Notes: generated from the letters alone by a model not told the origin. DNA of 64,000 nucleotides from Candidatus Humimicrobiia bacterium (GCA_049647085.1 JBARXA010000006.1:2670-66669), one strand, 5' to 3'. Counted from the first letter of the stretch, positions 19,421-33,000 are shown. Program-made: numbers and translations.

Positions 19421-19530
19421 GTCGGTATATTATAATAGGGGATTGCCACGCCACCTTCAGTGGCTCGCAATGACAAACAGGAGCTGTTCAGAATGTCAAG
19501 AATTAAATAATCAGATATAAGTCAGTATAA
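19399..19530 (+). repeat. 30-bp direct duplication (GAATTAAATAATCAGATATAAGTC[G/A]GTATA) flanking an inserted family-1 repeat at 19442-19476
   Basis: Copy 1 at 19399-19430 is the last codons and stop of the AKR gene. Copy 2 is at 19499-19530. There is one mismatch. Confidence 0.7.
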
Positions 19531-19842: not shown

Positions 19843-20156
19843 AATACAACATTTTCAAATCGATTAATAAATTTATAAATAGCTCCCCACTTCTTTTTAG
19901 AATAGAAAAAATGTTAAAGCAAAGGAAAAATATACAAATTAATAGAAATCATTTACATTGGTAAATGGAGATTGAGACAGATGTTTCACCTTCTTCGCAC
20001 AACAAAATTATTCTTCTTCAATAAAATAATTACACTAAACAGACAGGGATTGAGACTTTTAAATAATACTTACTTTTACTTTATAAAATTTTAAGTAATA
20101 AATATTTAATATCATTAATAGCATATTTATAAGTAATATTTATTATATTAAAAAGA

Positions 20157-20360
20157 TTGATTATGAAAGTATCCAACATACTAAAGGTTTTAATTATTAT
20201 AGCTGTTGTGCTATTCATTCTTCACTATTTTGTTGGATTGGATAATTTGATTTCAAAATTAAGTGATATTAACCTGGATTTTTTAACCACAAAATTAAAA
20301 GAATTTATAAATATATTAAAAAATTCATTAACCTGGATAAAGGAATTCTTAAGTGGTTGA
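20157..20360 (+). CDS. small TM-anchored protein, paralog of the N-terminal 90 aa of the thermonuclease at 25985
   Basis: TM helix then LDFLTTKLKEFINILKNSLTWIKEFLSG versus FDFLTNKLNELLTNFKKELSRIKELMTG. Confidence 0.4.
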   Translation: MIMKVSNILKVLIIIAVVLFILHYFVGLDNLISKLSDINLDFLTTKLKEFINILKNSLTWIKEFLSG

Positions 20361-20635
20361 AAGATATTATCAGTAAATAATTATGAAATAGAGTCATTCT
20401 AAAACTAACCACTATAATATTTGAATTTAGAATGAGTTAAAAAAGAAAAGTAATTATTAATTATCGTTACCTTTAATAAGCATATAATTTTAAAATGAAA
20501 ATTACCATAATAATTTGTTAATAATTTACTTTACTCAACAGTATCTTTAATTTGATAGCCAACTTTCACTATTTTCAATTCAAGTATTATAATTTAAGTT
20601 ACAAATTTATATTGATAAAGAGAGAAGTTGAAGTG

Positions 20636-20992
20636 ATGAAGGTAAAACAATTAACAAAATATAACATTATTGACCTTTATAAAATCTGTTGTCCTTATGA
20701 AGAACCTTATTTGGGTGCTATGAAGGAGAGTGCAGAACATTTTGTTAATAAAATGAATAAAAGATGGAAAGGTTTTGTAGCATATAAAGATGATGAAGTA
20801 GTAGGTAGAGCAGAAATTGCTCCAATAGAAGAATGTTTAGTTGCCATTGAAGGCGAAGATGTATATTTTCTTTATTGTCTTTGGGTTAAAAAGGAAGCTA
20901 AAGGTAAGGGTTATGGCAGAAAACTAATGGAGAAGATAGTTGAAGTATCTAAAAATAAAAATGGACTTGCAACTATTATGGTAGAAGGATGA
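20636..20992 (+). CDS. GNAT N-acetyltransferase, N-terminal two-thirds (ends at in-frame TGA)
   Basis: Motif A KGKGYGRKLMEK. The ORF stops ...ATIMVEG*. Confidence 0.6.
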   Translation: MKVKQLTKYNIIDLYKICCPYEEPYLGAMKESAEHFVNKMNKRWKGFVAYKDDEVVGRAEIAPIEECLVAIEGEDVYFLYCLWVKKEAKGKGYGRKLMEKIVEVSKNKNGLATIMVEG

Positions 20993-21397
20993 ATGCCAAG
21001 GAAATTTTTTGAACATTTTGGTTTTGAATTAGTGCAATCAAAAGGAATATCAGATTTGATGTTAAAAAGATTCGATCCTAAAGCTGAAGTAGAATTTAAA
21101 GATGTTAAATTTAATCCAAAAATAATTGATAATAAGGTTAATGTAACTGTGGTTCATTCAAAAAGATGTCCATTTATGACTATAAGCTACAATAAAGCTA
21201 TAGAGGTTGCAAAGAATATATCTGATAGGGTTATAATTACAGAACACATTTTAAAAACGCAGGAAGATATTTTGCGTTATGGTGATGAAAATTTTTATGT
21301 TGATGATGAAGCACCATTTATAGGACCAATAAAGATAGAAAAATTAAAGGATATAATTAAAGAAAAATTAAAAGAGAAATTTAAAAATATAAAATAA
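20993..21397 (+). CDS. continuation ORF carrying the GNAT C-terminal motif (MPRKFFEHFGFEL) plus a 120-aa extension; same frame as 20636-20992
   Basis: ATG directly abuts TGA (GGA TGA ATG). FFEHFGFEL matches the GNAT beta6/alpha4 motif FYEKLGF. Confidence 0.5.
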   Translation: MPRKFFEHFGFELVQSKGISDLMLKRFDPKAEVEFKDVKFNPKIIDNKVNVTVVHSKRCPFMTISYNKAIEVAKNISDRVIITEHILKTQEDILRYGDENFYVDDEAPFIGPIKIEKLKDIIKEKLKEKFKNIK

Positions 21398-22024
21398 ATT
21401 AAAAAAGAAATATAGAGGAAAGTTTAAGAATGCTTTTTCACGCTGGTAGTGATAAAGACGATACCAGCCAAAAAAGCTATTGTTTTCATTAATGTCTTTT
21501 ATCCTTGGGATCCTAAAATTAAAAATATAATATAGAATATCAGGCTTAATGTTTATGATAGTCAATACAAAATTTACTATAAAAAGTTTATAAATGCTAT
21601 TCTGATTAGACTATTTAATATTATTTATAAATTGATTGGAAGAAAAATGAAAAGGAAAAAATTATATTATTTATTTTAAATTTTGGACTCTTTTATAGAG
21701 GGATCTTTAATGTAGATATTGGGAAATAATGGACAAAAAATGATATACAAAATAATTGATATAACCAAGAAAAAAGAATATGAAAAATATCTTTACTAAT
21801 GTGGTTACCTATTAAAAAAAATGCAGGAATGCCTATTTGGGATACTGAGGTGTTATTGCAAGGAGTAGATTTTTGCTTAGCACATCCCCTTTATCATCCT
21901 CAAAGTATTAAATTTGATCGTATCTTTGAAAAGATATGAAATTGAAATTCCTACAAGTTTGGCCATCAGGTTTGACCAATCCTTCTTTAGTGTTTGAGAA
22001 ACTTAGGATTCAAGGAGATTAAAT

Positions 22025-22249
22025 ATGGGCATCAATATTTTTCCAATTCGTCTGTGGGTTGACCATTGCTATATAATCCAGGACAAAGGGGTGATTATGA
22101 TTGATTGTGGGTCACCCAAGAAAGCAAAAGCCTTTAAAAAAGCCATTGAAAGAATCCATATTAAACCTGATGAAATTCAGCTAATCGTTATAACACATGG
22201 GCATATGGATCATATAAGATCAGCTAATGACATCAAAGGGTTGACGTAG
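22025..22249 (+). pseudogene. MBL-fold metallo-hydrolase, truncated after 74 codons at a repeat boundary
   Basis: HGHMDH (HxHxDH) motif then stop. The TAG stop is the first bases of the family-2 repeat GTAGAAATAATTGACC. Confidence 0.55.
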
Positions 22250-22283
22250 AAATAATTGACCCAAATAAAAAGATATTGAAACT
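22247..22283 (+). repeat. family-2 CRISPR-repeat-like unit (GTAGAAATAATTGACCCAAATAAAAAGATATTGAAAC)
   Basis: Consensus GTAGAAATAATTGACCTGAATAAAAAGGGATTGAAAT. Copies at 23941, 29474, 31277, 32599 and 32675, all in the same orientation. Confidence 0.65.
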
Positions 22284-22383
22284 ATAATAGAGACTAAGAT
22301 GCTAAAGTGCCAAATTTATTTAAGTTAGCACCTTGGCTTTGTCCAAGATAAACTCCGATAACAGCAAACATGACATTATACAA

Positions 22384-23013
22384 CTATTTGCCTAGCTTGA
22401 ATGCTAATGTAGCTGCAGTTCTGGTACACAAGAATTGTATGAAACTAAGAGCCAAGCACCCTATGGTGACTAAGCTCACCCAATTCAGACCAGTTGTGGC
22501 AAATTGGTTTAAGTCCCAAAGTGCTTGAAGAATCTCTACGATGATTGGCTCACCTCGAGCGAGAATTCCTATAAGTAGTGCCTCTGAACCAGTTACGAAG
22601 GTCGTAAATATACTCACATTTCTGATACTTCTCGCAAATATTTCTGTACTCGCCCTTGCATGGTATTGTTTCCTACCTACATACAGCCCAGCAAGTGTCC
22701 CTAAAGCAATATTGCCAAACGGTAATCCCATAAATAAAGTAACTGCCATAATAGACCAGAGGAGATAAGTAAATAACATCAACTTCCTATTTGCATTATA
22801 GAACCTGATTATCCATTTCTTCAAATGAAACACATCAAAGATAATTCCAATAATTAAACCTGTGAATGCTGCAATTGTTATGCCACTTTCTGAGATCAGC
22901 AAGATATGATAAATAGTAAGTGCTGCAGTAGTCCACCAAAAGAGAACAAATAGAGATACAGGACACATAATTCCTATGAAAAGGCCAATTATTCTTGATT
23001 CCAACCTACTCAT
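22384..23013 (-). CDS. hypothetical polytopic membrane protein, GC-enriched
   Basis: 209 aa with 6 hydrophobic segments. Visibly higher GC than background. Confidence 0.45.
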   Translation of the reverse strand: MSRLESRIIGLFIGIMCPVSLFVLFWWTTAALTIYHILLISESGITIAAFTGLIIGIIFDVFHLKKWIIRFYNANRKLMLFTYLLWSIMAVTLFMGLPFGNIALGTLAGLYVGRKQYHARASTEIFARSIRNVSIFTTFVTGSEALLIGILARGEPIIVEILQALWDLNQFATTGLNWVSLVTIGCLALSFIQFLCTRTAATLAFKLGK

Positions 23014-23386
23014 GGTCTCCCTATCAGTCTTTCAGTGTTAAGAATATCACTTAGTTTTTTTATAACAAAGGAATTTTTGTTTAAAAACATATCCTTATAT
23101 ATTTTAAGAAATATAAATAAATTACCTCGCGACTCTAACTTTTAAATTTTAACATATCATGGAAATTATTTAAAATTATGTAAAATAATTAAAAATTGTA
23201 GAAATTTTAAATAGTCATTATTTTTCATTTAGCATTTTTATATGAATAAAAATTCAAAAATCTAATAATTTTATAAAATTAGATGGTCTCACACATCGGA
23301 AGTACGGGAACAATTTCCAAATTTGCTTCGTCTAAAATGTAATTATTATTAGTAACCCAATACTCAACTCATAAGGAGGTTCAGAA

Positions 23387-23791
23387 ATGTCGAAAAAGCT
23401 TAAAACCCGCAGGAACACAATAGCTGTGTTGCTGGCAGTTTTGGTTCTACTAGCTAACTGCAGACCTTCTAAAGAGGTCAAGCTGGACGCTGGTAACAAT
23501 GGCAGCCAGATCGAGATCGAGCAAGGTCAAATCCTGGTCATTACATTGGAGGCTAATCCCACTACTGGTTATACGTGGGAAATGATCGAAAATGAGGAAC
23601 AAATCCTGCAGCAAGTAGGAGAAATTGAGTTTCAACCGGATTCTAAGTTAATAGGCGCTCCAGGTATACAGACCCTGCGTTTAGAGGCTGTTAATGTAGG
23701 AAAGATAACTCTCAAATTGATATACCACCGACCCTGGGAAGAGAATGTGGACCCACTAGAAACCTTCTCTGTCCAAGTGGTAGTACACTGA
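23387..23791 (+). CDS. chagasin-family (I42) cysteine-peptidase inhibitor, lipoprotein
   Basis: LLANC lipobox and the NPTTGYTWE signature. GC-enriched. Confidence 0.75.
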   Translation: MSKKLKTRRNTIAVLLAVLVLLANCRPSKEVKLDAGNNGSQIEIEQGQILVITLEANPTTGYTWEMIENEEQILQQVGEIEFQPDSKLIGAPGIQTLRLEAVNVGKITLKLIYHRPWEENVDPLETFSVQVVVH

Positions 23792-23826
23792 TCTGGTAGG
23801 AACACTACAACGATTCTCAGCGATCC

Positions 23827-24020
23827 TCTCTTTGGTGGAGTGGAGGCTTGGGAGTACACTATTTGTGTATGTGTCTGTATTCGGAAGAAGCAAGAGAGAA
23901 ACGGTACACCCTGTCTCACCACAGATGTAGCTGTATTATACATAGAAATAATTTACCTGAATAAAAAGGGATTGAAGAACCCCCACTCTAATTGCTTCCA
24001 GGCAGGTAGAAATATTGAAA
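23827..24020 (+). repeat. composite repeat: G-rich hairpin unit (23827-23858) + family-2 unit (23941-23977) + partial family-2 unit (24006-24020)
   Basis: CTTTGGTGGAGTGGAGGCTTGGGAGTACAC; CATAGAAATAATTTACCTGAATAAAAAGGGATTGAAG; GTAGAAATATTGAAA. Confidence 0.6.
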
Positions 24021-24165
24021 CTTATATGATAAGCTAATCGTCGTAAGTAACATAAATTTCTCAGTAAGGATACTTAAATTAATTAAAAATTGATTGAAAC
24101 TATAAAAATGAGTTAGGTAAAACTTATTACCATTTCTCAAATAAAGAATAAATAGGATTGTTAAT

Positions 24166-25644
24166 ATGAAAATACTTCTTGTCTATCCAGAGTATCCAGA
24201 CACCTTCTGGAGTTTTAAGTACGCCTTAAAATTTATCTCTAGAAAAGCAACCTTCCCACCTTTAGGGTTGTTGACTATAGCTGCAATGCTTCCCAAAGAG
24301 TGGGAGAAAAAACTTGTGGATATGACAGTAACAACATTAAGTGATAGTGACATTGAGTGGGCTGATTATGTATTTATTAGTGCTATGTCTATTCAAAAGG
24401 AATCTGTGAAAAGGGTAATTGTTAAATGCAAAAGGTTGGGAGCTAAGATTGTTGCTGGTGGTTCTCTCTTTACGAGCGGATATGAAGATTTCGAGGACGT
24501 AGATTATCTTGTACTTAATGAGGCTGAAATTACATTACCATCCTTTTTAAAAGATTTAAAAGAGGGGTCTCCTAAACATATCTACACATCAGATCAGTGG
24601 GCAGATATAAAAAAGACACCAATCCCACTTTGGGAACTAGCTAATATGAAGAAATATGCCTCTATGTGTATCCAATATTCACGAGGTTGTCCATTTAATT
24701 GTGAATTCTGCGATGTCACCTTACTTTTTGGGCACAAGGTGCGAATAAAAACTAAAGACCAGATATTAGCAGAATTAGATAGCCTATATTCACAGGGCTG
24801 GAGGAGTGGAGTATTTATTGTTGACGACAACTTTATTGGAAATAAGAGAGAGTTAAAAAAGGAAGTTCTACCAGCTATGATTGACTGGATGAAGAAAAGA
24901 AAACATCCTTTCTCCTTTACCACACAGACCTCAATAAATCTCTCCGATGATGAAGAACTTATGCAGTTGATGGTTCAGGCAGGGTTTAACGCAGTATTTG
25001 TTGGTATTGAGACTCCCAATGAAGAGAGCTTAGCCGAATGTGGAAAGGTTCAAAACCAAAATCGTGATCTAATAGCTTGTGTTAAGAAAATTCAAAGGTT
25101 TGGTTTGCAAGTTCAAGGAGGATTTATTGTTGGTTTCGATAGTGATCCACTCTCAATTTTTGAAAGGTTAATTGAATTTATTCAAAAAAGTGGAATTGTC
25201 ACTGCCATGGTTGGGTTATTAAATGCTCCTCGTGGTACCAAACTCTACCATCGACTTGTAAAGGAGGATAGATTATTGAAGGATGTTTCGGGTGATAACA
25301 CAGACCTTTCAATCAACTTTATCCCCAAAATGAACTACGAAGCGCTTATAAGCGGCTATAAAAGAGTTCTCCGTACAATCTATTCCCATAAGCATTACTA
25401 TGAACGGATCCAGACTCTTTTGAGAAACTTTAAGCCTTTACAAAAAAAGAAATATCAATTTCATCTCTGCTATCTTAAGGCATTCGTTAAATCTATATGG
25501 CTTCTAGGAATAAGAGGAAAAGGAAGGATTTATTATTGGAAACTCCTTTTCTGGTCTTTGTTTAAGCGTCCACAACTTTTTCCACTGGCAGTAACCTTTG
25601 CCATTTACGGATTCCATTTTCGTAAGATTTTTAAAAATTATTAA
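24166..25644 (+). CDS. B12-binding-domain radical SAM protein (class B)
   Basis: N-terminal B12-binding region (LLVYPEYPD...PPLGLLTIAAML) and CxxxCxxC (CPFNCEFC). Confidence 0.85.
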   Translation: MKILLVYPEYPDTFWSFKYALKFISRKATFPPLGLLTIAAMLPKEWEKKLVDMTVTTLSDSDIEWADYVFISAMSIQKESVKRVIVKCKRLGAKIVAGGSLFTSGYEDFEDVDYLVLNEAEITLPSFLKDLKEGSPKHIYTSDQWADIKKTPIPLWELANMKKYASMCIQYSRGCPFNCEFCDVTLLFGHKVRIKTKDQILAELDSLYSQGWRSGVFIVDDNFIGNKRELKKEVLPAMIDWMKKRKHPFSFTTQTSINLSDDEELMQLMVQAGFNAVFVGIETPNEESLAECGKVQNQNRDLIACVKKIQRFGLQVQGGFIVGFDSDPLSIFERLIEFIQKSGIVTAMVGLLNAPRGTKLYHRLVKEDRLLKDVSGDNTDLSINFIPKMNYEALISGYKRVLRTIYSHKHYYERIQTLLRNFKPLQKKKYQFHLCYLKAFVKSIWLLGIRGKGRIYYWKLLFWSLFKRPQLFPLAVTFAIYGFHFRKIFKNY

Positions 25645-25649
25645 AATTC

Positions 25650-25864
25650 TCCTCCATTCCACTCCCACTTCCCTTTCCCATAAGGGGAGAAGGGGTATGA
25701 TTAAGTTTTTAGTTTGATGAAATTTTAGCTTCATATTGATAAAAAATAAACTTCTACTTTAATGGAACTTTTTTATTTAATTCCTCCCTTGATGGCAGGT
25801 AGTTTAATAATAAGCATTTTTCTTTAGTCCCCCATCCTTGATGGGAGGGGGTAGGGAGAGGGTG
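25650..25864 (+). repeat. cluster of family-3 G-rich hairpin units
   Basis: CCCTTTCCCATAAGGGGAGAAGGGG (25650-25698), CCTCCCTTGATGGCAGG (25783-25800), CCCCCATCCTTGATGGGAGGGGGTAGGGAGAGGGTG (25829-25864). Related to 28025-28052 and 32641-32675. Confidence 0.6.
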
Positions 25865-25984
25865 TAGATTGAAATAAATATATATTATAATTGATGATAT
25901 TAAATTAATGATAGGATAAATTATAATTACTAAAAAAGAGAGCTTTAAGTACAATTAAGACATTTTTAACAGAAAGCATTATTT

Positions 25985-26680
25985 ATGAAATTATCTACTA
26001 TATTTAAATTTTTAATTATTATAGCTATTTTAATATTTGTCCTTTACTATTTTACTGGATTTGAATTTTTGCCTTCTAAATTTAACCTCAGTGGCTTTGA
26101 CTTTTTGACTAATAAATTGAATGAGTTACTAACAAACTTTAAAAAAGAGTTATCCAGAATAAAAGAGTTGATGACTGGGTTAGTAGAAACATTAAAGCAA
26201 GAGTTATTTGGAATAAAGAAGTTGTATGATTTGGTGAAAGACATTATTACTCCCCATTCAGAAGAATCTAATTCTGATTTTATTAGTGCTCGTATTTTAA
26301 GAGTAATTGATGGTGACAGCATAGTTGTAGAAATTAAGGGAAAGAGTTATGAGGTTAGATATATTGGAATAGATGCTCCTGAAATAAGTGATTTAGACAA
26401 ACCTGCTGAATTTATGGCAGAGGAAGCTTTAGAGAAGAATAAAGAGTTAGTTAGTGGAAAGATTGTTAAGTTAGAAAAAGATGTATCAGAAACTGACAAA
26501 TATGATAGATTACTTCGTTATGTATATATGGAAGACGTGATGATTAATGCTGAATTAGTCAGACTTGGCTATGCTTATGCAAAACCCTACCCCCCAGATG
26601 TGAAATATGATGACCTTTTATTAAAGTGTCAGAGAGAAGCAAAAGAGAATAAGCTTGGGCTCTGGAGTCAAAATCAATAA
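25985..26680 (+). CDS. thermonuclease (SNase-like), N-terminal TM anchor
   Basis: SNase core (RLLRYVYMEDVMINAELVRLGYAYA, DGDS, Arg/Glu catalytic residues). Confidence 0.8.
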   Translation: MKLSTIFKFLIIIAILIFVLYYFTGFEFLPSKFNLSGFDFLTNKLNELLTNFKKELSRIKELMTGLVETLKQELFGIKKLYDLVKDIITPHSEESNSDFISARILRVIDGDSIVVEIKGKSYEVRYIGIDAPEISDLDKPAEFMAEEALEKNKELVSGKIVKLEKDVSETDKYDRLLRYVYMEDVMINAELVRLGYAYAKPYPPDVKYDDLLLKCQREAKENKLGLWSQNQ

Positions 26681-26774
26681 TCCTGTTATCCTTCCAATAG
26701 TACTTCGTATAACTTTAATCAAAAATTGTATAGTTTATACGATTTCTCAGATATGAATGACTATTAAAAAAAGC

Positions 26775-27803
26775 TTATTTAGAAACTTGTATACGCCTTC
26801 TTAGACGTCCTGTTCCTAACCCAACACCTATAAGGAGTACTCCTGTAATGAAGAGTGCAATTGGCATTCCGATTTTATCAGCGAAGTGTTCAAAATTAAC
26901 ATAGGTGATTATAAAAAGTAGGAAAGCTGCTCCACAATATAGAAAGATTCGGGACTGCTTTTTAACACTAATAACTATGAAAGCAATACTGGCTAAAAAG
27001 GCTATACCCACCATTATTATTTCCTGCCACCAGGTAAAACCGTATGTATCTGTAGCCAAAAGCCCGGTGAAACTCAGGATTGTCAAAGCTCCAAATATTT
27101 GAGATACCCATACCAAACTTTTTTTCTCCCTCATCCGTAGCCACTCTGACAATACTAACCATAAACCACCAGCAATAAGACCAATCAATAGTAATGACAG
27201 GTTTTCGTAGAAATGGTTAAAGCGTGGAATAATGTTACCTAACCAACCAATGAACGATGATAGCAAGATACTGCCCCAGAGATGGAAAGTGATGCTCTGA
27301 GTAATGCTTGGGAGAAATATAAAAGCAGCTCCAGCTAGTACTGTTGCCAAAAGACAGCCCAAAAGCACCCAGGGGTCACTAGGCCCTAACTCCTGTAAAT
27401 TCATGAGGTCTAACTCATAAAAGATCACCCAAAAAGTTAGTCCACTCAGCAAACAACCACCTAACCACAAAGCCTGTGCTCCTCGCTTAAGATAAATACT
27501 ATCAGAACTACGTAACAACCAACCCAGAACCAACATAATAATTGTAGGAATAAGTATAGAGAGTATTCTACCCACACTTCCCAATGCTTTCCAGTTCAGA
27601 CTTACCAAGAAAGCTAATGATAGAAAGATAACCAAGCTACCCAGGTAAACAAAAATCTCATTAATCCCTACTCGATGAGCTGGCACAAATTCCATTGTGC
27701 TCTTTATTTCCCTCTGCTTCAAAGCTTCTGCCTGTTCATGCGAGATTAACCCCTCTCCAACCCACTCTTTAATCTTGTTTAACAAAGATTCTGACTTAAC
27801 CAT
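26775..27803 (-). CDS. DUF2157-like membrane protein, GC-enriched
   Basis: 342 aa with a soluble N-terminal helix (LISHEQAEALKQ) then about 9 TM segments. Confidence 0.45.
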   Translation of the reverse strand: MVKSESLLNKIKEWVGEGLISHEQAEALKQREIKSTMEFVPAHRVGINEIFVYLGSLVIFLSLAFLVSLNWKALGSVGRILSILIPTIIMLVLGWLLRSSDSIYLKRGAQALWLGGCLLSGLTFWVIFYELDLMNLQELGPSDPWVLLGCLLATVLAGAAFIFLPSITQSITFHLWGSILLSSFIGWLGNIIPRFNHFYENLSLLLIGLIAGGLWLVLSEWLRMREKKSLVWVSQIFGALTILSFTGLLATDTYGFTWWQEIIMVGIAFLASIAFIVISVKKQSRIFLYCGAAFLLFIITYVNFEHFADKIGMPIALFITGVLLIGVGLGTGRLRRRIQVSK

Positions 27804-28024
27804 AACATGTCTCCTTTCTTATAAAATTAAACTTTTACACTTTATTAAAAAATAATAAAAAATCCTCACCTAATTGTTCATCTTTTGTATATGTGTTTTA
27901 GTCAATTGTATATAAATTGTATACAAATTAAATTATATACGAATAAAAAAAAGATTTGTAATTTTCTATAAAAATCTAATTCACTTTAATTATCAATCAC
28001 ACTGAAACTTGTAGTTTGAATTAG

Positions 28025-28052
28025 CTTCCTTGATGGGAGTGGCTTGGGAGTG
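28025..28052 (+). repeat. family-3 G-rich hairpin unit (CTTCCTTGATGGGAGTGGCTTGGGAGTG)
   Basis: Shares the CCTTGATGGGAG core. Confidence 0.55.
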
Positions 28053-28194
28053 TTTTTACTTTAATTATCTATCATACTAAATTTGTTACTTTTTTTAGAA
28101 TTTATAAAAATTTTAAAAAAGTTATATAATTGTAGATCAATTAATAAAAAAATTTTCTAAGTTTTAATATTTAATTAAAGTAAAGGAAAATATT

Positions 28195-29424
28195 ATGGAA
28201 AATAAAAATGCAATAGAATTGATTGAGATAAAAGGTCATATCATTGACTCTTTAATTTTACCCCAGATATTTGATGAAATTGTAGAAGCTGGTGGTGAGT
28301 TTGAAGTAGTGGAATTTGTAATAGGAAAAACAAACATTGATGAAAGTCTGGCTAAAATAAAAATTTCCGCAATTTCTCATGAAGTTTTAGACATAATTTT
28401 ATATAGATTACAAAGATTAGGAGTAGTTCCAGTTAAGGTAAAGAATGCATCTACGGCTCCAGCTCCAAAGGATGGAATTTTGCCTGATGATTTTTACTCA
28501 ACTACAAACATTGCCACTAAAATTAGAATCTCTAGAAACTGGATAGATGTTCAAAATCAGGAGATGGATTGTGCAGTGGTAATTAATAAAAACCAAATCC
28601 CTGAATGTGTTCGTATGTCTAAAGTTAAGAAAGGAGATCATATAGTAATTGGTAGAAATGGGATAAGGGTAATGCCCACCGAGAGACCGAGAGAGGGCAC
28701 TTTTTTCGAATTTATGACATCCTCTGTATCCAGTGAGAAGCCTAAGAGGTTATTAATAAAAGAGATAGCAAAAAGAATGAGATTAATAAAGGAAAGTGAT
28801 GGCAAGATACTGTTTGTTTGTGGACCTGCAGTAGTTCATACTGGTGCTAAGAAATATTTAGTTAGATTAATTAACAATGGATATATAGATGTTCTATTTT
28901 CTGGAAATGCATTAGCAGTTCATGATTTAGAGTCAGAAATTTTTGGAACATCATTAGGCATAAGCTTGAAAAGTGGAGCTGTTACTGATGAAGGTCATGG
29001 TAATCATTTAAGAGCAATAAATATCATAAAAAATTATGGATCAATTAAAAATGCTATAGATGCTGGTGTAATAAAAGATGGGATAATGCATGCTCTTATA
29101 AAAAATAAAAAGGAATATGTTTTAGCTGGTTCAATAAGGGATGATGGACCCTTGCCAGAAGTTATAACAGATGTAGTGGAGGCTCAGGATGCAATGAGGA
29201 GTAAATTAAAAGATATCAAAATGGCTTTGATGTTAGCCACAATGCTTCACTCAATAGCAGTTGGAAATCTATTACCAGCAACAGTTGAGACCTATTGTAT
29301 AGATATAAATCCAGCTGTTGTTACTAAATTAACTGATAGGGGAAGCTTTCAAACAAGGGGTATGGTAACAGATATAGGTCTATTCTTAAGAGATTTAACA
29401 AATGAATTAATTAATGTTTGGTAA
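28195..29424 (+). CDS. conserved hypothetical protein, LOR/SDH-like (TIGR00300-type) family
   Basis: 409 aa. GSIRDDGPLP and CGPAVVHTGA segments resemble the LOR/SDH conserved region. Assignment is from memory only. Confidence 0.35.
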   Translation: MENKNAIELIEIKGHIIDSLILPQIFDEIVEAGGEFEVVEFVIGKTNIDESLAKIKISAISHEVLDIILYRLQRLGVVPVKVKNASTAPAPKDGILPDDFYSTTNIATKIRISRNWIDVQNQEMDCAVVINKNQIPECVRMSKVKKGDHIVIGRNGIRVMPTERPREGTFFEFMTSSVSSEKPKRLLIKEIAKRMRLIKESDGKILFVCGPAVVHTGAKKYLVRLINNGYIDVLFSGNALAVHDLESEIFGTSLGISLKSGAVTDEGHGNHLRAINIIKNYGSIKNAIDAGVIKDGIMHALIKNKKEYVLAGSIRDDGPLPEVITDVVEAQDAMRSKLKDIKMALMLATMLHSIAVGNLLPATVETYCIDINPAVVTKLTDRGSFQTRGMVTDIGLFLRDLTNELINVW

Positions 29425-29473
29425 AATAAACTTAAATATTAAAGCTTCTCTAAATAGTATTAATTTACCATTT

Positions 29474-29528
29474 AATTAATTGACCTGAATAAAAAGGGAT
29501 TGAAATATTAAAAAATCAGAAAAAAATT
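29474..29528 (+). repeat. family-2 unit (AATTAATTGACCTGAATAAAAAGGGATTGAAAT) followed by the ATTAAAAAATCAGAAAAAAATT tail
   Basis: The same tail recurs at 32795-32816. Confidence 0.65.
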
Positions 29529-29626
29529 AATTAATGCCACTAATTTATAAAATACCAACCCTACCCATTGACAAAGTTTTACTAAGTATATATAATTAAC
29601 AAAAATGTTAATTATATATATTTAAT

Positions 29627-30214
29627 ATGAAGTACTTAAAACTTAGAAGACTAAAGAAAAACCTATATTTTACAGTTGAAGATGTAGCAAGTGTTTTAAA
29701 CATAAAACAATCTTCAGCACGTGTAATGTGCAGCCGCTATGCAAAAAACGGTTTTTTTATAAGATTAAAGAATAATTTTTATGTACTGTCTGAAAATTGG
29801 GATAAATTTTCCCGAGAAGATTTTTTAAGAATTTCAAATTATATTCAGGTTCCTTCTTATATCTCTTACATGACAGCTCTTATGAAATATGGTGTTACAA
29901 CGCAGGTGCAGCAGAATTTCTTTGAGTCTTGTTCTTTAAAGAGAACAAAGGTATTCGATGTCGGAGGAATAGAGTTTAGATATTATAAGATTAAGAAAGA
30001 TTATTATTTTGGATTTGAAAGAAAAAACAATATATTTTTAGCCACAAAAGAAAAAGCATTTATTGATACTACATATCTTTATTCTTTTGGAAAATACAGA
30101 ATTGATTTCAGTTCTCTCGATCTTAATAAATTAGATAAAGAAAAAATTATAGAAATCATTAATATATTTCCAGCAAAGACGAAAAAATTGGTGGGGAAAT
30201 TATGCGAGATCTAA
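29627..30214 (+). CDS. abiEi: AbiEi-family antitoxin / transcriptional regulator
   Basis: N-terminal wHTH (FTVEDVASVLNIKQSSARVMCSRYAKNGFFIRL). The gene overlaps the downstream AbiEii start. Confidence 0.65.
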   Translation: MKYLKLRRLKKNLYFTVEDVASVLNIKQSSARVMCSRYAKNGFFIRLKNNFYVLSENWDKFSREDFLRISNYIQVPSYISYMTALMKYGVTTQVQQNFFESCSLKRTKVFDVGGIEFRYYKIKKDYYFGFERKNNIFLATKEKAFIDTTYLYSFGKYRIDFSSLDLNKLDKEKIIEIINIFPAKTKKLVGKLCEI

Positions 30215-30873
30215 TTGAACAAGAAAAGTTTGAATTGGGCGTTTTAGACAGGTTAAATAGCAAGAGAATTCTTGAAAAACTTATATTTGTAGACGGAACC
30301 ATGTTACGGTTATGTCATGGACTTAACAGATTTTCAATTGATATAGATTTTTGGCTAACAAAAAAAGTTAATAAAAATAAATTATTTATAGAAATAAATA
30401 AATATTTTTCTCAGTTCTATAAGATAAGTGACAGTGCCAATAAATTGAATACACTACTTTTTGAATTTAAGTCTTCTAAATACCCAATGAACTTAAAATT
30501 AGAGATAAGAAAGGAGATCAAAAATATTGAAACTGAGCAGGTTATTGCTTATAGCAAATACTCTAATATACAGGTACTTCTAAGAGTTCCAACCCTTGAT
30601 GCAATGATGAGTGAAAAAATTGACGCTTTTCTTGAAAGAAAGGAGATAAGAGATATATTTGATATTGAGTTTTTATATAAAAAGGGAATTGAGCTCAAAG
30701 AATCTCCAGAAAAATTAATAAAAATACTTGATGGAATAAAATTATTTAAGAAAAATGATTATAAAGTAAAACTTGGGTCTTTGCTTGAGAAAGAGCAAAG
30801 GAAGTATTATATTAACGAGAATTTCAAAATCCTTAAAGCAGCTATAAAAGAGAAAAAGTTAGTGATATCTTAG
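30202..30873 (+). CDS. abiEii: AbiEii/AbiGii-family nucleotidyltransferase toxin (DUF1814)
   Basis: GTMLRLCHGLNRFSIDIDF NTase motif. Confidence 0.75.
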   Translation: MRDLIEQEKFELGVLDRLNSKRILEKLIFVDGTMLRLCHGLNRFSIDIDFWLTKKVNKNKLFIEINKYFSQFYKISDSANKLNTLLFEFKSSKYPMNLKLEIRKEIKNIETEQVIAYSKYSNIQVLLRVPTLDAMMSEKIDAFLERKEIRDIFDIEFLYKKGIELKESPEKLIKILDGIKLFKKNDYKVKLGSLLEKEQRKYYINENFKILKAAIKEKKLVIS

Positions 30874-31276
30874 AAAATTATGGAATTAGAGTTCAATATA
30901 GTCTGTTTGAATGTAAATTAAAACTTGATGACCTATTAAAATTAAAATTCTATTTAAAGAATTTAATAAATAAAGAAGAAGACAGAATCCATTTTTACAG
31001 ATTATGTCCAGGATGTTATGGTAAAATTGAGAAGATTGGAACTGACAAACCAATTATAGATAAAGAAACAATAGTGATATAAATAATTCGAGCATTAATG
31101 GTGTGCAAAATTACTGAGAGATGATAGCAAAATTTAAAAAACCTGCAAAAATATATTTTGATATTCTAAAAATGAAAAATTTTAAATCATAAAATATTAA
31201 ATTTAATATAATATTAGAAGACACTCGATTTTTAGGTATAAATGACCTGATAATTAATACAAAAAAGTATGCAGAA

Positions 31277-31314
31277 GTAGAAATAATTGACCTGAAGAAA
31301 AAGGGATTAAAAAG
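31277..31314 (+). repeat. family-2 unit (GTAGAAATAATTGACCTGAAGAAAAAGGGATTAAAAAG)
   Basis: Immediately precedes the GC-rich pfkA leader. Confidence 0.65.
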
Positions 31315-31572
31315 CGACTATCAGTAACCCTGCAATGCCAGAATCTGGGCGGTTTAGAGGGATGATATTCTCATCCTTCAAAGTTTCCTACAAAAACCTT
31401 CCAAATTGTTATCTCGCTCCCGTGATGTCAATGCGCATTTATCTCACTTAGCTCATTTACGGACCATCGGATATTATAATAGCTTTCACTGAAAAGGGGA
31501 ATTCATTCCTTTGTCGTTTTGGTATATAATTCTGGTAATAGGTAATGAACAATAATTAATGAGGACAGTTTT

Positions 31573-32538
31573 ATGAAGCGTATTGGGGTGTTGACCAGTG
31601 GCGGAGATAGCCCTGGGATGAACGCTTGTATAAGGGTGGTAGTGAGGACAGGTATTAGTCTTGAACTGAAGGTCATAGGCATTAAACGTGGCTATACTGG
31701 ACTAATAGATGGGGAGATAGAGCAAATGGGTGCACGCTCCGTGGGCGGCATAATCCAAAGAGCGGGCACCATCTTACAAACAGCGAGATGTGAGGAATTT
31801 AAAACAATACATGGGAGATGCAAGGCGCTGCGAAAGCTAAACGAGTACGGCATCGAGGGATTGGTGGTAATTGGTGGTTGTGGCTCCCTGAAGGGTGCTT
31901 TGGAGCTTCACAAGATGGGCTTTCCTGTAGTTGGCGTGCCAGCCAGCATTGACAACGACATCTGTGGAACCGACATGTCCATCGGCACTGACACAGCCCT
32001 CAACACTGCGCTTGATGCTATTGACAAAATAAAAGAGACCGGCTCCTCGCACGGACGGGCTTTCCTAGTAGAAGTGATGGGGCGGAATTGTGGATATCTT
32101 GCTTTGATGGCTGCGATAGCCGGTGGGGCCGAGGTCGTCCTTATCCCAGAGAAAGAGATTGCTCTGGAGGAGGTTGCTGAGATCTTAGAACAAGCTTACA
32201 TCAAGGGTAAAGCCCACGCTCTCGTCGTCATAGCAGAGGGAGCTAAGTGTAAAACCTCGGAGGTAGTTGCTTACCTTCAGAAAGAGGAGATAGGCTTTGA
32301 GGTGCGCACCACCATACTTGGTCATGTCCAAAGGGGAGGGTCACCGAGTGCATTCGACAGGCTCCTAGCAACACGCTTAGGCGCATCAGCTGTACAGAAG
32401 CTTGCTAAGGGGGTCAGAGGTATGATGGTTGGGTTGATAGGTAACAAAATAAAGACCACAAGCTTGGAGCAGGTAACTGAGCGACGCAAGGAGTTGGACA
32501 TAACCTTATATGATATGGCTGAGGTACTGGCAAAGTAA
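31573..32538 (+). CDS. pfkA: ATP-dependent 6-phosphofructokinase
   Basis: GGDSPGMNA, GGCGSLKGA and MGR motifs. First 100 nt is 50% GC versus about 30% background. Confidence 0.9.
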   Translation: MKRIGVLTSGGDSPGMNACIRVVVRTGISLELKVIGIKRGYTGLIDGEIEQMGARSVGGIIQRAGTILQTARCEEFKTIHGRCKALRKLNEYGIEGLVVIGGCGSLKGALELHKMGFPVVGVPASIDNDICGTDMSIGTDTALNTALDAIDKIKETGSSHGRAFLVEVMGRNCGYLALMAAIAGGAEVVLIPEKEIALEEVAEILEQAYIKGKAHALVVIAEGAKCKTSEVVAYLQKEEIGFEVRTTILGHVQRGGSPSAFDRLLATRLGASAVQKLAKGVRGMMVGLIGNKIKTTSLEQVTERRKELDITLYDMAEVLAK

Positions 32539-32598
32539 AGGAGAGTATCAAGATTACATCCATACCCATGTCATCCTTTTCATGGTCTATCCTCCTTT

Positions 32599-32816
32599 CA
32601 TAGAAATAATTGACCTGAATAAAAAGGGATTTAGAATCACCCTCCCCCTACCCCCTCCCATCAAGGGAGGGGAAGTAGAAATAATTAACCTTAGTAAAAG
32701 ATTCCTCTCCACTTCATCTCTGATTTTTGAGGATGATATTTTTATAAAGATAAGATGCCTATTTATCTTGAAATCTTTACAATAAAAATATAATATTAAA
32801 AAATCAGAAAAAGATT
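32599..32816 (+). repeat. composite: family-2 unit (32599-32636) + perfect G-rich hairpin CCCCTCCC-ATCAA-GGGAGGGG (32641-32675) + degenerate family-2 unit (32675-32705) + ATTAAAAAATCAGAAAAAGATT tail (32795-32816)
   Basis: Two family-2 units separated by about 40 bp, mimicking a repeat-spacer-repeat arrangement. Confidence 0.65.
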
Positions 32817-32859
32817 AAATTACCAAATTAATGAAAAAGTTTATTAAAAGTGGTTTTAA

Positions 32860-33000
32860 ATGAAATGTAAAAATCACCCTGGTAGGAAGGCTATTCATAT
32901 CTGTCAGAAATTTAATTATGGATATTGTGATGATTGCTGTCAGTGTACAATGCCTGATGAATTTTGTCGTTTTCGAGCAAATCATCTCTGTTCAATTTAG
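32860..33000 (+). CDS. small Cys-rich ORF (46 aa, 8 Cys)
   Basis: MKCKNHPGRKAIHICQKFNYGYCDDCCQCTMPDEFCRFRANHLCSI. Weak RBS. Below the ORF-track cutoff. Confidence 0.3.
   Translation: MKCKNHPGRKAIHICQKFNYGYCDDCCQCTMPDEFCRFRANHLCSI

What the first reader, a model, noticed from the sequence alone, without database searches (positions are those of the whole stretch)
22025..33000. Cassette-like mosaic: same-orientation CRISPR-repeat-like units and G-rich hairpins partition 11 kb into GC-anomalous gene cassettes
Seven copies of a 35-37 nt unit (GTAGAAATAATTGACCTGAATAAAAAGGGATTGAAAT) occur at 22247, 23941, 24006, 29474, 31277, 32599 and 32675, all on the same strand. Its reverse complement resembles CRISPR direct repeats. 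G-rich palindromes of the CCTTGATGGGAGGGGG type are interleaved at 23827, 25650-25864, 28025 and 32641. Together they separate single or paired genes: a membrane protein plus chagasin; a B12 radical SAM enzyme; the thermonuclease plus DUF2157; a LOR/SDH-like gene; AbiEi/AbiEii; and pfkA. Several cassettes are far more GC-rich than the host (pfkA first 100 nt is 50% GC; background genes are about 29%). The first unit supplies the stop codon that truncates an MBL-fold gene at codon 74. At 32599-32705 two units flank a 40-bp hairpin, like a one-spacer mini-array. Overall this is integron- or cassette-array-like, but no integrase or cas gene is in the window.
Basis: seen in the sequence. Interest (0 to 1): 0.8.

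Follow-up and report, generated by a model that had tools for sequence, protein, structure and literature searches.

The report
Decayed CRISPR locus turned cassette mosaic
The repeated 37-nt units are genuine CRISPR repeats left over from a dead type III-A CRISPR-Cas locus, now scattered among one- or two-gene segments that related strains carry in different combinations, with the rearrangement breakpoints falling on the repeats.

Summary
The window has ten co-oriented copies of a 37-nt CRISPR repeat (consensus GTAGAAATAATTGACCTGAATAAAAAGGGATTGAAAC), all within 19.9-32.7 kb: three decayed mini-arrays and four solo units. Relatives carry the same repeat in regular arrays next to cas6-csm1-6 (type III-A). 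The host is a low-GC, deep-branching Actinomycetota from marine sediment. Across 53 related contigs, intervals between repeats are bimodal (45 at ≤60 bp, 44 at ≥577 bp). The long segments hold toxin-antitoxin, nuclease, defence-type and metabolic genes, some clearly foreign (pfkA GC3 0.53 vs 0.22, Chloroflexota-like). Relatives show these segments gained, lost and reordered. Ten of 34 unique synteny breakpoints fall on units (3.8% expected, P≈3e-7). No integrase, transposase or intact cas gene is present, and the units are decaying. Best reading: repeats, and to a lesser extent G-rich hairpins, act as short patches of homology for recombination in a hypervariable island. A dedicated cassette-capture mechanism is not excluded but has no support.

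The parts
19942..20056 (+). Decayed mini-array A: two degenerate units (19942-19978 at 26/37; 20020-20056 at 25/37), both ending GATTGAGAC, with a 41-nt spacer. This is the left edge of the island.
   Evidence: Consensus scan against shuffles; sequence read.
20157..21397 (+). Segment 1 genes: N-terminal fragment of an SNase paralog (20157-20360), a GNAT acetyltransferase (20552-20992) and an unknown ORF (20993-21397). GC3 is host-like.
   Evidence: This segment is absent in relative L139.
22025..22249 (+). Metallo-beta-lactamase-fold gene truncated at codon 74. Its stop codon is the TAG of the next unit.
   Evidence: Pfam PF00753, profile 7-64 of 196; sequence.
22246..22282 (+). Solo CRISPR unit (33/37).
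   Evidence: Synteny breakpoints in L108 and L139 fall here.
22384..23791 (.). Segment 2: a membrane protein (22384-23013, - strand, GC3 0.35) and a chagasin-family inhibitor (23387-23791, + strand, GC3 0.47).
   Evidence: 95.5% identical in L070 and L155, where core flanks are only 80-91% in L155.
23825..23857 (-). G-rich hairpin family copy, 34 nt after the chagasin stop.
23942..24100 (+). Decayed mini-array B: unit 23942-23978 (33/37), unit 24006-24022 with an internal 21-nt deletion, and degenerate unit 24064-24100 (26/37). Spacers are 26-27 and 41 nt.
   Evidence: The homologous units are better preserved in L123, L155 and L048.
24166..25644 (+). Segment 3a: B12-binding radical SAM enzyme with DUF4070 (GC3 0.33).
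   Evidence: In L012 and L123 a unit follows its stop codon directly.
25650..25877 (.). Cluster of G-rich hairpin copies (25650-25700, 25783-25800, 25828-25864), followed by GATTGAAAT, a possible unit 3' relic. This is a recurrent synteny breakpoint.
25985..29424 (.). Segments 3b-d: SNase-family nuclease (25985-26680, +), DUF2157 membrane protein (26775-27803, -, GC3 0.37), hairpin copy (28021-28052) and a LOR/SDH ArgZ-like enzyme (28195-29424, +, host-like GC3).
   Evidence: In L078, LOR/SDH is followed by a nadA/nadC operon instead of the next unit.
29470..29509 (+). Solo unit that lost its 5' 12-16 nt by slippage between two AATT motifs. It is full length in L135 and L148.
29568..30873 (+). 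AbiEi/AbiEii toxin-antitoxin module with its own consensus promoter (29568-29596). It abuts and truncates cas2.
   Evidence: Pfam PF08843; promoter scan. The module sits at a different place in L003 and L074.
30852..31083 (+). cas2 pseudogene remnant: C-terminal 76 codons, with the N-terminus and start codon missing.
   Evidence: PF09827, E=1e-15, profile 17-74 of 74. The same truncation occurs in L001, L056 and L120; L133 retains a shorter part.
31084..31276 (+). AT-rich CRISPR leader.
   Evidence: It lies between cas2 and the first unit. It is 80-86% conserved with the leaders of L133 (which has a 5-repeat array), L087, L117 and L098.
31277..31313 (+). Leader-proximal unit (34/37), directly followed by the pfkA segment.
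   Evidence: Rfam CRISPR-DR32 at 27 bits, below the gathering score. Five independent breakpoints fall here.
31314..32600 (+). pfkA segment: ATP-dependent 6-phosphofructokinase (31573-32538), GC 0.505, GC3 0.525, of foreign origin.
   Evidence: The nearest named homologs are Chloroflexota/Anaerolineae, and GC-rich loci match only the CDS. It is a pseudogene in L064 and L092.
32600..32705 (+). Mini-array C: a unit with an altered 3' end (…GGGATTTAGAATC), a 38-nt G-rich hairpin in the spacer position, and a degenerate terminal unit. In L079 the unit+hairpin part lies downstream of csm6.

Best explanation
Window 19.9-32.7 kb is the wreck of a type III-A CRISPR-Cas locus inside a hypervariable accessory/defence island of a low-GC, deep-branching Actinomycetota.

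The ancestral layout survives in pieces in relatives: cas2 - leader - array - cas6 - csm1 to csm6 - a terminal unit+hairpin. In the window's lineage the adaptation and effector genes were lost; only a cas2 stub truncated by an AbiE module remains. The arrays shrank to three mini-arrays and four solo repeats. DNA segments of 0.6-8 kb, some host-like and some horizontally acquired, now lie between the repeats.

The surviving 37-nt repeats are all in direct orientation. Together with a family of G-rich hairpins, they act as short patches of homology. General (RecA-type) and illegitimate recombination delete, duplicate, swap and import segments at these patches among co-existing strains. This produces a cassette-like mosaic without any dedicated recombinase.

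Shown: repeat identity, the cas2 stub and leader, the type III-A ancestry, segment-level variation, breakpoint enrichment at the repeats, the foreign origin of pfkA, and decay of the units. Inferred: that homologous recombination at the repeats is the mechanism, and that the units no longer function in immunity.
For: - Ten co-oriented units occur only in the island.
- A Cas2 remnant and a leader lie immediately upstream of unit 31277.
- The same repeat forms regular 74-77-bp arrays in relatives (L066, L079, L146). In L079 the array is followed by cas6, cas10/csm1 and csm2-6, then the same unit+hairpin as window 32600. L133 has cas2'-leader-5 repeats-solo repeat-cas6.
- All relatives at this locus share a truncated cas2, so adaptation was already dead.
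- Each junction at a unit in the window is reproduced in at least one independent assembly (L001, L056, L070, L078, L120, L123, L140, L148, L155).
- Segment content differs between relatives. M1 is absent in L139. AbiE is relocated and pfkA, cas2' and the leader are absent in L003/L074. A nad operon replaces AbiE-cas2'-leader in L078. L155 has a compact version.
- 20 of 62 breakpoints lie within 10 bp of a unit. After collapsing duplicates this is 10 of 34, against 3.8% expected (P=3e-7).
- Intervals between repeats are bimodal: 45 at <=60 bp, 1 of 87 bp and 44 at >=577 bp.
- Identity is mosaic, which argues for lateral exchange. L140 is 97.7% identical at pfkA-end/units but 85-87% in the thiolase flank. 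L155 is 95.5% at membrane/chagasin but 80-91% in core flanks. L135 is 94.5% at AbiEii but 85.6% at AbiEi/LOR.
- Units carry 3-14 mismatches or deletions, against 0-1 in active arrays.
- pfkA is a pseudogene in L064 and L092.
- No integrase, transposase or other cas gene is in the window or in 30 segment gene families of relatives.
Against: - Homologous recombination at 37-bp repeats was not observed directly. About two thirds of unique breakpoints are not at units, so illegitimate events and other homologies also contribute.
- How foreign DNA first came to abut a repeat is unexplained. The pfkA segment starts exactly at the 3' end of a unit in every context, and no spacer halves or target-site duplications were seen.
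- Some unrelated segments in relatives share a conserved motif, GTTAnrTGAAAT, 11-31 nt after the unit. This hints at something more specific than random recombination.
- At least 25 different long-segment families carry this one repeat family in these metagenomes. That is more than simple decay of one locus would predict.
- Whether an intact type III-A system elsewhere in the same genome still uses these units could not be tested.
Confidence: 0.6

Rival explanations
1. A dedicated cassette-capture system. [repeat-gene] units are inserted and excised site-specifically at the CRISPR repeat, either by Cas1-Cas2 (supplied in trans) integrating kb-long DNA as giant 'spacers', or by an unknown recombinase. 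This would be a functional analogue of an integron.
For: - Interval sizes are bimodal, with nothing between 87 and 577 bp.
- Segment 5' ends coincide exactly with the unit's 3' end in many contexts. For example, unit+pfkA follows a leader, a nad operon, a TrmO segment or a TA-like segment.
- pfkA occupies the leader-proximal position in the window, where Cas1-Cas2 integrates.
- There are at least 25 segment families.
- A shared motif occurs just after the unit in several unrelated segments.
Against: - cas2 is truncated and cas1 is absent at this locus in the window and in the relatives that retain this part of the locus.
- No integrase or transposase was found in the window or in 30 segment gene families.
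- Segment 3' ends are not bounded by a unit in several relatives (L012, L064, L088, L155).
- Several junctions cut through genes or through the unit itself: MBL codon 74, truncated units in L012, L123 and L088, and 22053 joined to a 5'-truncated unit in L123. This is typical of illegitimate events.
- Active arrays with this repeat have normal 37-41-nt spacers.
- Some long segments are native host genes (LOR/SDH next to nad genes in L078).
Confidence: 0.12
2. The solo units are retained because they still function as RNA elements. They could be Cas6 cleavage sites that cut read-through transcripts into separate mRNAs or crRNA-like regulators. The 32600-32705 mini-array with its hairpin spacer would be the main candidate. 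Alternatively they could be promoter parts for the downstream gene.
For: - Most units lie 66-260 bp upstream of a co-oriented gene.
- The unit+hairpin of mini-array C is conserved in many relatives, and in L079 it sits immediately after csm6.
- The hairpin 'spacer' has reverse-complement copies in neighbouring transcribed regions (25828, 28021, 23825).
- Conserved standalone repeats and mini-arrays with regulatory roles are known in other CRISPR types (10.1101/2023.03.03.530964).
- With the motif 11 nt after the unit, the unit's TTGAAA, a 17-nt gap and TGAAAT/TACAAT would form a sigma-70-like promoter.
Against: - Units are decaying at roughly the rate of the surrounding DNA. Orthologous units differ at 1-5 of 37 positions between the window and L155, and several carry deletions, including in the Cas6-tag region.
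- The co-orientation of ORFs with units (69 of 82) equals the background strand bias of the window, about 78%.
- Promoter-like and terminator-like sites are not enriched and do not track the units.
- No cas6 or csm gene is in the window.
- Regulatory mini-arrays have not been reported for type III systems in the paper read.
Confidence: 0.13
3. The long segments are remnants of mobile elements that specifically target CRISPR arrays (array-targeting Tn7-like transposons, prophages using the repeat as attB, or plasmids/viruses carrying solitary repeat units that recombined into the array). They have since been stripped of their mobility genes.
For: - There are precedents: Tn7-like elements that insert into CRISPR arrays, and phage ΦAP1.1, which integrates into repeats (PMC11837452).
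- SRU-mediated recombination into arrays has been proposed (PMC8616872).
- Segment cargo is rich in defence/TA genes typical of mobile-element cargo (AbiE, SAVED, Mrr, HNH, DUF4238, helicase+nuclease).
Against: - No tnsA/B/C/D, integrase, phage structural or plasmid replication genes appear in any segment examined.
- The viral-contig scan found no relevant element carrying this repeat.
- No terminal inverted repeats or target-site duplications flank the segments.
- Segments are mostly single genes of 0.6-2 kb, and some are native host genes.
Confidence: 0.1
4. Assembly artefact: metagenomic assemblers joined unrelated strains or loci at the shared 37-nt repeat, creating a chimeric mosaic.
For: - The Logan contig L001 ends inside unit 32600 and starts about 100 bp after unit 29470.
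- Two BART01 contigs (L056, L072) show rearrangements or inversions at 97-100% identity that look chimeric.
Against: - Every junction at a unit in the window is reproduced in at least one independent assembly from other projects, including a 551-kb contig (L155) and k141 MEGAHIT contigs whose k-mer exceeds the repeat length.
- Alternative arrangements are themselves reproduced independently (L003=L074=L050; L070=L073; L088=L092; L155=L156=L157).
Confidence: 0.03

Closest known systems
Degenerate or orphan CRISPR arrays and relic CRISPR-Cas loci (cas loss, array erosion by repeat-repeat recombination)
   Same: Genuine CRISPR repeats; a cas2 pseudogene plus leader; degenerate terminal repeats; mini-arrays; loss of the effector and adaptation genes; intact homologous type III-A loci in relatives.
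   Different: Ordinary relics keep spacer-sized intervals or vanish. Here about half of all intervals between repeats in the lineage are gene-sized (0.6-8 kb), and the repeats mark the boundaries at which segments are exchanged between strains.
Integron gene-cassette arrays
   Same: Co-oriented short repeats separate one- or two-gene segments. Segments are present, absent or reordered between relatives. Cargo is accessory, including toxin-antitoxin and foreign-GC genes.
   Different: There is no IntI, attI or Pc. The repeat is an unstructured CRISPR repeat, not a hairpin-forming attC. The repeat marks the 5' side of a segment and the 3' side is variable. Many junctions are illegitimate, cutting genes or units.
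Mobile elements inserted in CRISPR arrays: array-targeting Tn7-like transposons (PMC11837452) and prophage ΦAP1.1, which uses the repeat as its attachment site
   Same: Kilobase-long DNA lies between CRISPR repeats and arrays are split into pieces.
   Different: No transposition or integration genes, element ends or target duplications are present. There are many small independent segments rather than one element.
Solitary repeat units, RNA anti-CRISPRs and crRNA-like regulatory mini-arrays (Faure 2019 via PMC8616872; PMC10651486; 10.1101/2023.03.03.530964)
   Same: Standalone repeats and two-repeat mini-arrays outside regular arrays. The unit+hairpin of mini-array 32600-32705 is conserved across related loci and lies next to csm6 in L079.
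   Different: The units are chromosomal rather than viral, are decaying, belong to a type III context, and no target complementarity to a cas or toxin promoter was shown. Faure's proposed repeat-repeat recombination is the nearest mechanistic idea, but no SRU-bearing donor element was found.
Defence islands and hypervariable genomic hotspots flanked by conserved core genes
   Same: The island is bounded by conserved genes (aldo/keto reductase and YbaB upstream, thiolase/DUF35 downstream). Its content is dominated by TA, nuclease and defence-type genes and varies between strains.
   Different: The internal recombination landmarks are CRISPR repeats and a G-rich hairpin family, rather than integrase att sites or tRNA genes.

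Membership tests
CRISPR array | Direct repeats of 23-55 nt with a conserved sequence, all in one orientation | tested here: met
   Ten 37-nt units, all on the + strand.
CRISPR array | Regular spacing by unique spacers of about 25-60 nt | tested here: not met
   Only four intervals are spacer-sized (41, 26-27, 41 and 38 nt). The others are 1.3-5.4 kb.
CRISPR array | AT-rich leader and cas genes adjacent | tested here: met
   A cas2 remnant (PF09827, E=1e-15) and a 193-bp leader lie directly upstream of unit 31277. The leader is homologous to that of the L133 array.
CRISPR array | The same repeat forms bona fide arrays next to cas operons in related genomes | tested here: met
   L066, L079, L146 and L133 have arrays. 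In L079 the array is followed by cas6-csm1-6.
CRISPR array | Match to a curated CRISPR-DR RNA family | tested here: inconclusive
   Rfam CRISPR-DR32 matches 31277-31313 on the + strand over model 1-37 of 37, at 27.1 bits against a gathering score of 48 (E=0.3). Nothing reaches gathering.
[quoted passage not shown] | cas10/csm1, csm2-5 and cas6 present and intact | tested here: not met
   tblastn with the L079 Cas6/Csm1-6 proteins finds nothing in the window. Pfam annotation of the window's ORFs of 100 aa or more (and of the island's ORFs) shows no cas gene other than the cas2 stub.
[quoted passage not shown] | Intact adaptation module (cas1-cas2) | tested here: not met
   cas2 lacks its N-terminus and start codon and no cas1 is present. 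The same truncation is found in relatives.
Integron | intI tyrosine recombinase adjacent to the array | tested here: not met
   No integrase-family hit in the annotated window ORFs.
Integron | attC sites: imperfect palindromes that fold as single-stranded hairpins at cassette 3' ends | tested here: not met
   The unit is unstructured on both strands (deltaG -0.5 and 0 kcal/mol, no better than shuffles). Units sit 5' of segments.
Integron | Cassettes individually present or absent between relatives | tested here: met
   Segment-level variation with breakpoints at the units.
Array-targeting Tn7-like transposon / repeat-targeting prophage | Element-encoded TnsA/B/C/D or integrase, defined ends, target-site duplication | tested here: not met
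   None among the window ORFs or 30 segment gene families of relatives. No conserved termini or duplications were seen.
Viral solitary repeat units / RNA anti-CRISPRs | Solitary host-like repeat carried by a phage or other mobile element | tested here: not met
   The viral-contig scan gave 3 hits, none low-GC or a full-length match. The window is chromosomal, with DnaX, RecR and POR genes.
crRNA-like regulatory mini-array (CreA/CreR-type) | Two repeat-like sequences flanking a spacer, conserved in related loci | tested here: met
   The 32600-32705 region is conserved at 88-99% in L003, L050, L074, L079, L103, L140 and L148.
crRNA-like regulatory mini-array (CreA/CreR-type) | Spacer partially complementary to a cas or cargo-gene promoter, with repression by the effector | tested here: inconclusive
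   The spacer is a member of the hairpin family, with reverse-complement copies at 23825, 25828 and 28021. No specific promoter target was shown, and expression cannot be tested with these tools.
MITE / REP-like dispersed element | Genome-wide dispersal in both orientations, terminal inverted repeats and/or target duplication | tested here: not met
   Units are confined to a 13-kb island, all on one strand, with no inverted-repeat ends. Whole-genome dispersal cannot be tested.

The most novel reading that the evidence does not exclude
In this sediment Actinomycetota lineage, one CRISPR repeat family has been co-opted as the recombination site of an integron-like gene-cassette platform. [repeat-gene] units (at least 25 segment families, many of them defence or toxin-antitoxin genes, some captured from other phyla) are inserted, excised and exchanged at the repeat. 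The agent would be host recombination or a trans-acting Cas1-Cas2-type integrase able to take kb-long DNA. The conserved GTTAnrTGAAAT motif downstream of the repeat would be part of the cassette's recombination or expression signal.
Probability: 0.15. Interest if true: 0.85.

Novelty: new variant of a known kind. Interest (0 to 1): 0.58.

Why it matters
Eroded CRISPR arrays are usually regarded as dead ends. Here the leftover repeats of a dead type III-A locus mark the seams of a strain-variable island that collects toxin-antitoxin, nuclease, defence-type and even foreign central-metabolism genes. If recombination at the repeats is what moves these segments, CRISPR arrays can become scaffolds for gene gain, loss and exchange after they stop working as immune memory. 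That would be an integrase-free route to integron-like plasticity. It would also be a warning for CRISPR finders and metagenome binning in such lineages. The many independent contigs make the idea directly testable with long reads.

Tried and rejected
1. I tested whether the GC-rich segments arrived together with the CRISPR locus from the Nitrospirota lineages that share the 20-nt repeat core. No island protein has a homolog in those loci, so this is rejected.
2. I looked for a fragment of the donor's neighbouring gene upstream of pfkA. None was detectable: tblastn with the DUF6391 protein found nothing and nucleotide homology is limited to the CDS.
3. I looked for viruses carrying this repeat. 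IMG/VR gave only 3 irrelevant hits.
4. I tested whether units act as promoters or segment ends as terminators. The scan shows no enrichment and no association.
5. Gene orientation relative to the units (84% co-oriented) matches the background strand bias, so it is not informative.
6. I looked for spacer halves or target duplications flanking long segments. None were seen.
7. I looked for csm remnants in the window. None were found.
8. An exact-protein look-up of the window's pfkA found only one 3-kb contig, so the source contig itself is not in that index.
9. The motif GTTAnrTGAAAT after units in relatives could not be explained.
10. I did not use the third protein-database search, structure prediction or covariance models, because none would have decided between the explanations.

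Full report

Yes. A profile built from the clear copies finds units at 22247, 23943, 29473, 31278 and 32601 (E 1e-8 to 1e-10), plus a partial copy at 32676. All are on the + strand and there are none elsewhere in the 64 kb.

Relatives give the 37-nt consensus GTAGAAATAATTGACCTGAATAAAAAGGGATTGAAAC. Against it, eight sites match at ≥25/37: 19942, 20020, 22246, 23942, 24064, 29470, 31277 and 32600. Shuffled windows give 0.13 such sites. Unit 24006 has an internal 21-nt deletion, and unit 32675 is a degenerate terminal copy (23/37).

So the window has ten units: mini-array A (19942, 20020), solo 22246, mini-array B (23942, 24006, 24064), solo 29470, solo 31277 and mini-array C (32600, 32675).

- The G-rich hairpin family is real and confined to the island.
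- The MBL-fold gene is truncated at codon 74 by the TAG inside unit 22246.
- GC3 is strongly deviant for pfkA (0.525) and chagasin (0.467) against a background of 0.219 ± 0.058. It is moderately raised for DUF2157, the membrane protein and rSAM. It is host-like for SNase, LOR/SDH, AbiE and GNAT.

**2.

The frame at 30852-31083 encodes the C-terminal 76 residues of Cas2 (PF09827, E=1e-15, profile 17-74 of 74). Its N-terminus is replaced by the end of AbiEii. A 193-bp AT-rich stretch follows, and then unit 31277. This is the standard cas2-leader-first repeat arrangement.

The strand as written is therefore the crRNA-sense strand. It ends in ATTGAAAC, the tag typical of Cas6-processed type I/III repeats (my own knowledge). 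The only Rfam hit is a sub-threshold CRISPR-DR32 match on the + strand.

**3. Relatives**

Scanning public genomes and metagenomes for the 20-nt core found two kinds of loci:
- regular arrays in GC-rich Nitrospirota MAGs, which share only the core;
- about 50 low-GC (28-37%) contigs carrying the full-length unit.

Among the low-GC contigs there are true arrays with 74-77-bp period (L066, L079, L146, L014/L020).
- L079 reads: 9-repeat array - cas6 - cas10/csm1 (with HD domain) - csm2 - csm3 - csm4 - csm5 - csm6 - then the same altered unit + G-rich hairpin as window 32600. The ancestral system was type III-A.
- L133 has cas2'-leader-5 repeats-solo repeat-cas6.
- L087, L098 and L117 show a second decayed locus: hut/accA genes - internally deleted cas2 - leader - one repeat - HAMP-GAF-HD gene.
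- All relatives at the window's locus share a truncated cas2.
- The window contains no csm remnant and no integrase, transposase or other cas gene.

The host is a deep-branching Actinomycetota. RecR is 60-63% identical to Ca. Hakubella, Anoxymicrobiaceae and Geothermincolia, and a 99% partial match is labelled 'marine sediment metagenome'. The closest MAGs are labelled 'Actinomycetes bacterium'.

**4. Cassette-level variation**

Contigs 85-99% identical to the window carry the same modules in other combinations.

| Locus | Arrangement |
|---|---|
| L139 | Lacks 20058-22246 and has one unit where the window has three. |
| L070/L073 | Membrane/chagasin segment, then a methyltransferase segment, a TrmO-like segment and unit+pfkA. 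|
| L003/L074/L050 | Unit-hairpin-unit (32598-32818) joined to the AbiE module and then to 33025 onward, with no pfkA, cas2' or leader. |
| L078 | LOR/SDH followed by nadA, an aspartate-dehydrogenase-like gene, nadC and a lipoprotein gene, then unit 31277+pfkA. Both breakpoints lie at unit 5' edges. |
| L120 | cas2'-leader-unit-41-nt spacer-unit-helicase+nuclease. |
| L155 (551-kb contig) | CysS-DUF2157-GNAT-unit-membrane-chagasin-3 units-rSAM-TrmO-unit-pfkA-thiolases. |

Each junction at a unit in the window is reproduced in at least one independent assembly, so the mosaic is not an assembly artefact. Two BART01 contigs (L056, L072) do look partly chimeric.

Of 62 ends of high-identity alignments inside 19.0-33.5 kb, 20 lie within 10 bp of a unit, against 3.4% expected. 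After collapsing near-duplicate loci, 10 of 34 unique breakpoints are at units, against 3.8% expected (P=3e-7). One further recurrent breakpoint is at the hairpin after rSAM. Others lie at gene ends (26.64-26.71 kb, 30855, 32548).

Intervals between repeats over all low-GC loci are bimodal: 45 at ≤60 bp, one of 87 bp and 44 at ≥577 bp. The long ones fall into 25 sequence families.

**5. What the segments carry**

- In the window: GNAT, an MBL fragment, membrane protein + chagasin, B12-rSAM, SNase, DUF2157, an ArgZ-like LOR/SDH enzyme, AbiEi/AbiEii and pfkA.
- In relatives: AAA_14/DUF4143 ATPase, SAVED, Mrr, HNH, DUF4238, two RNase_T exonucleases, HTH+DUF6036 nucleotidyltransferase, MrcB/NucS-like nuclease, PIF1-like helicase, methyltransferase, TrmO-like protein, DNA-alkylation repair protein, FTR1 and others. 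None encodes a recombinase.

pfkA is foreign. The nearest named homologs are Chloroflexota/Anaerolineae. GC-rich loci with 81-82% identical proteins match only the CDS (76% nt), carry no units and show ordinary chromosomal contexts. pfkA is dispensable, since L064 has an internal deletion and L092 a frameshift.

Identity is mosaic, which indicates lateral exchange of island pieces:
- L140 is 97.7% identical at pfkA-end/units but 85-87% in the thiolase flank.
- L155 is 95.5% at membrane/chagasin but 80-91% in core flanks.
- L135 is 94.5% at AbiEii but 85.6% at AbiEi/LOR.

**6. Mechanism**

The best-supported reading is a relic type III-A locus whose remaining direct repeats, and secondarily the G-rich hairpins, serve as short homologies for general and illegitimate recombination within a hypervariable island.

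For this reading:
- breakpoints are enriched at the units;
- one unit stands where relatives have several;
- units are decaying (3-14 mismatches or deletions against 0-1 in active arrays);
- many junctions are illegitimate, cutting genes or units;
- no dedicated enzyme is present.

Points that remain open:
- how foreign DNA first came to abut a repeat so exactly;
- the large number of segment families;
- a motif (GTTAnrTGAAAT) 11-31 nt after the unit in several unrelated segments of relatives. Ten of its 15 occurrences in 574 kb (both strands) are in that position.

Rivals, in order of weight:
- **RNA-level function of the solo units or mini-array C.** Argued against by unit decay, background-level strand bias and no promoter or terminator association.
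- **A dedicated capture mechanism.** Argued against by the dead adaptation module, variable 3' ends and native genes between units.
- **Stripped array-targeting mobile elements.** There are precedents (PMC11837452; ΦAP1.1), but no mobility genes, element ends or viral carriers were found.
- **Assembly artefact.** Argued against by independent reproduction of the junctions.

**7. Comparison with known systems**

This is not an integron: there is no IntI and the unit is unstructured. It is not a working CRISPR-Cas system either. It is a member of the class 'degenerate CRISPR locus', but an unusual one.

Recombination between repeats, insertion of mobile elements into arrays, and the idea that repeat-bearing elements could recombine into arrays (Faure 2019, cited in PMC8616872) are all known. 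A multi-segment, strain-variable gene mosaic seamed by CRISPR repeats did not turn up in my literature searches. Those searches cover open-access papers only.

**Verdict.** The finding is real and statistically solid. It is best explained as a new variant of a known kind. It is of moderate to good interest, with a minority possibility of a true cassette-capture system.

Noticed in passing
L070 8107-8136, L073 387-416, L136 6139-6180, L047 126-165, L146 198-260, L064 335-380, L012 2691-2725 (coordinates in repeat-oriented copies): Several unrelated long segments in relatives share the motif GTTAnrTGAAAT(T/C)CC..GAAC 11-31 nt downstream of the CRISPR unit. Ten of 15 occurrences in 574 kb (both strands) are in that position. 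It is absent from the window's island. It could be a promoter -10 paired with the unit's TTGAAA, a regulator or recombination site, or a relic of a second repeat.
   Followed up: partly
L047 962, L109 3281 and 4170, L136 6769, L118 2593 (repeat-oriented copies): A recurrent variant of the unit has its 3' end replaced by ...AAAAGGGGCTGAGA. It occurs in at least five different contexts, which suggests a second conserved junction type.
   Followed up: no
window 19400-19529: A 30-nt direct duplication (gaattaaataatcagatataagtc[g/a]gtata, the 3' end of the aldo/keto reductase gene) flanks a 70-nt insert containing a GC-rich hairpin (ttgccacgccaccttcagtggctcgcaa). Relative L017 lacks the 100-bp insert, and breakpoints at 19435/19464 recur in L139, L017 and L070. 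A similar ~75-bp insertion with a ~40-bp duplication occurs at 25611-25651 in L056 and L148.
   Followed up: partly
window 37700-43300 and 45800-47600: Two further strain-specific segments are absent from relative L155. They contain the only other GC3-anomalous genes in the window (40130-40762 on the - strand, GC3 0.455, no Pfam hit; TPR protein 46059-46916, GC3 0.437) and a Fic/DOC gene (41099-42145). They are not associated with CRISPR units or hairpins.
   Followed up: partly
window 13735-13865: A c-di-AMP (ydaO-type) riboswitch (104 bits) lies upstream of a HEAT/PBS-lyase-repeat protein (13911-14816). This is an unusual downstream gene for this riboswitch class.
   Followed up: no
window 16145-17287 (- strand): A HepT-like RNase plus an RHH/MNT nucleotidyltransferase toxin-antitoxin pair lies about 2.7 kb upstream of the island, and a PIN_3 gene sits at 6330-6764. 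The region is generally rich in TA modules.
   Followed up: no
L014/L020 (JAHLWE010000463.1, labelled Promethearchaeota archaeon 2R3_4): This 8.4-kb, 29-33% GC contig in an Asgard-archaeon MAG carries an array of the same repeat. Its cas6 is 84% identical (aa) to that of L079, but it is followed by a different type III effector set (cas10 31% identical). This is either mis-binning or cross-domain transfer, with effector-module swapping.
   Followed up: partly
L087 4800-5200; also L098, L117: A second, independent relic locus: histidine-utilisation and accA genes, a cas2 pseudogene with an internal deletion (N-terminal about 20 aa fused to the C-terminus), a leader, a single repeat, then an HAMP-GAF-HD-domain signalling gene.
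   Followed up: partly
L056 6814-7511 and L072 (BART01 contigs): These contigs are 97-100% identical to the window but have inversions or jumps (for example 31265 joined to 26709; 30774-30394 inverted next to 28748-29583). They are probably chimeric assemblies of the same population, or real rearrangements.
   Followed up: no
window 20157-20360 vs 25985-26680; window 22025-22249 vs 54879-55544: The island contains fragments of paralogs of intact genes. One is an SNase N-terminal fragment (46% aa to the intact SNase in L017/L070 comparisons, about 75% nt locally). The other is an MBL fragment; a full-length MBL-fold gene lies at 54879-55544.
   Followed up: partly
window 4668-5912 (- strand) and 23387-23791: The window encodes two different protease-inhibitor families, a serpin and a chagasin (I42). 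The chagasin lies on a GC-anomalous island segment.
   Followed up: no
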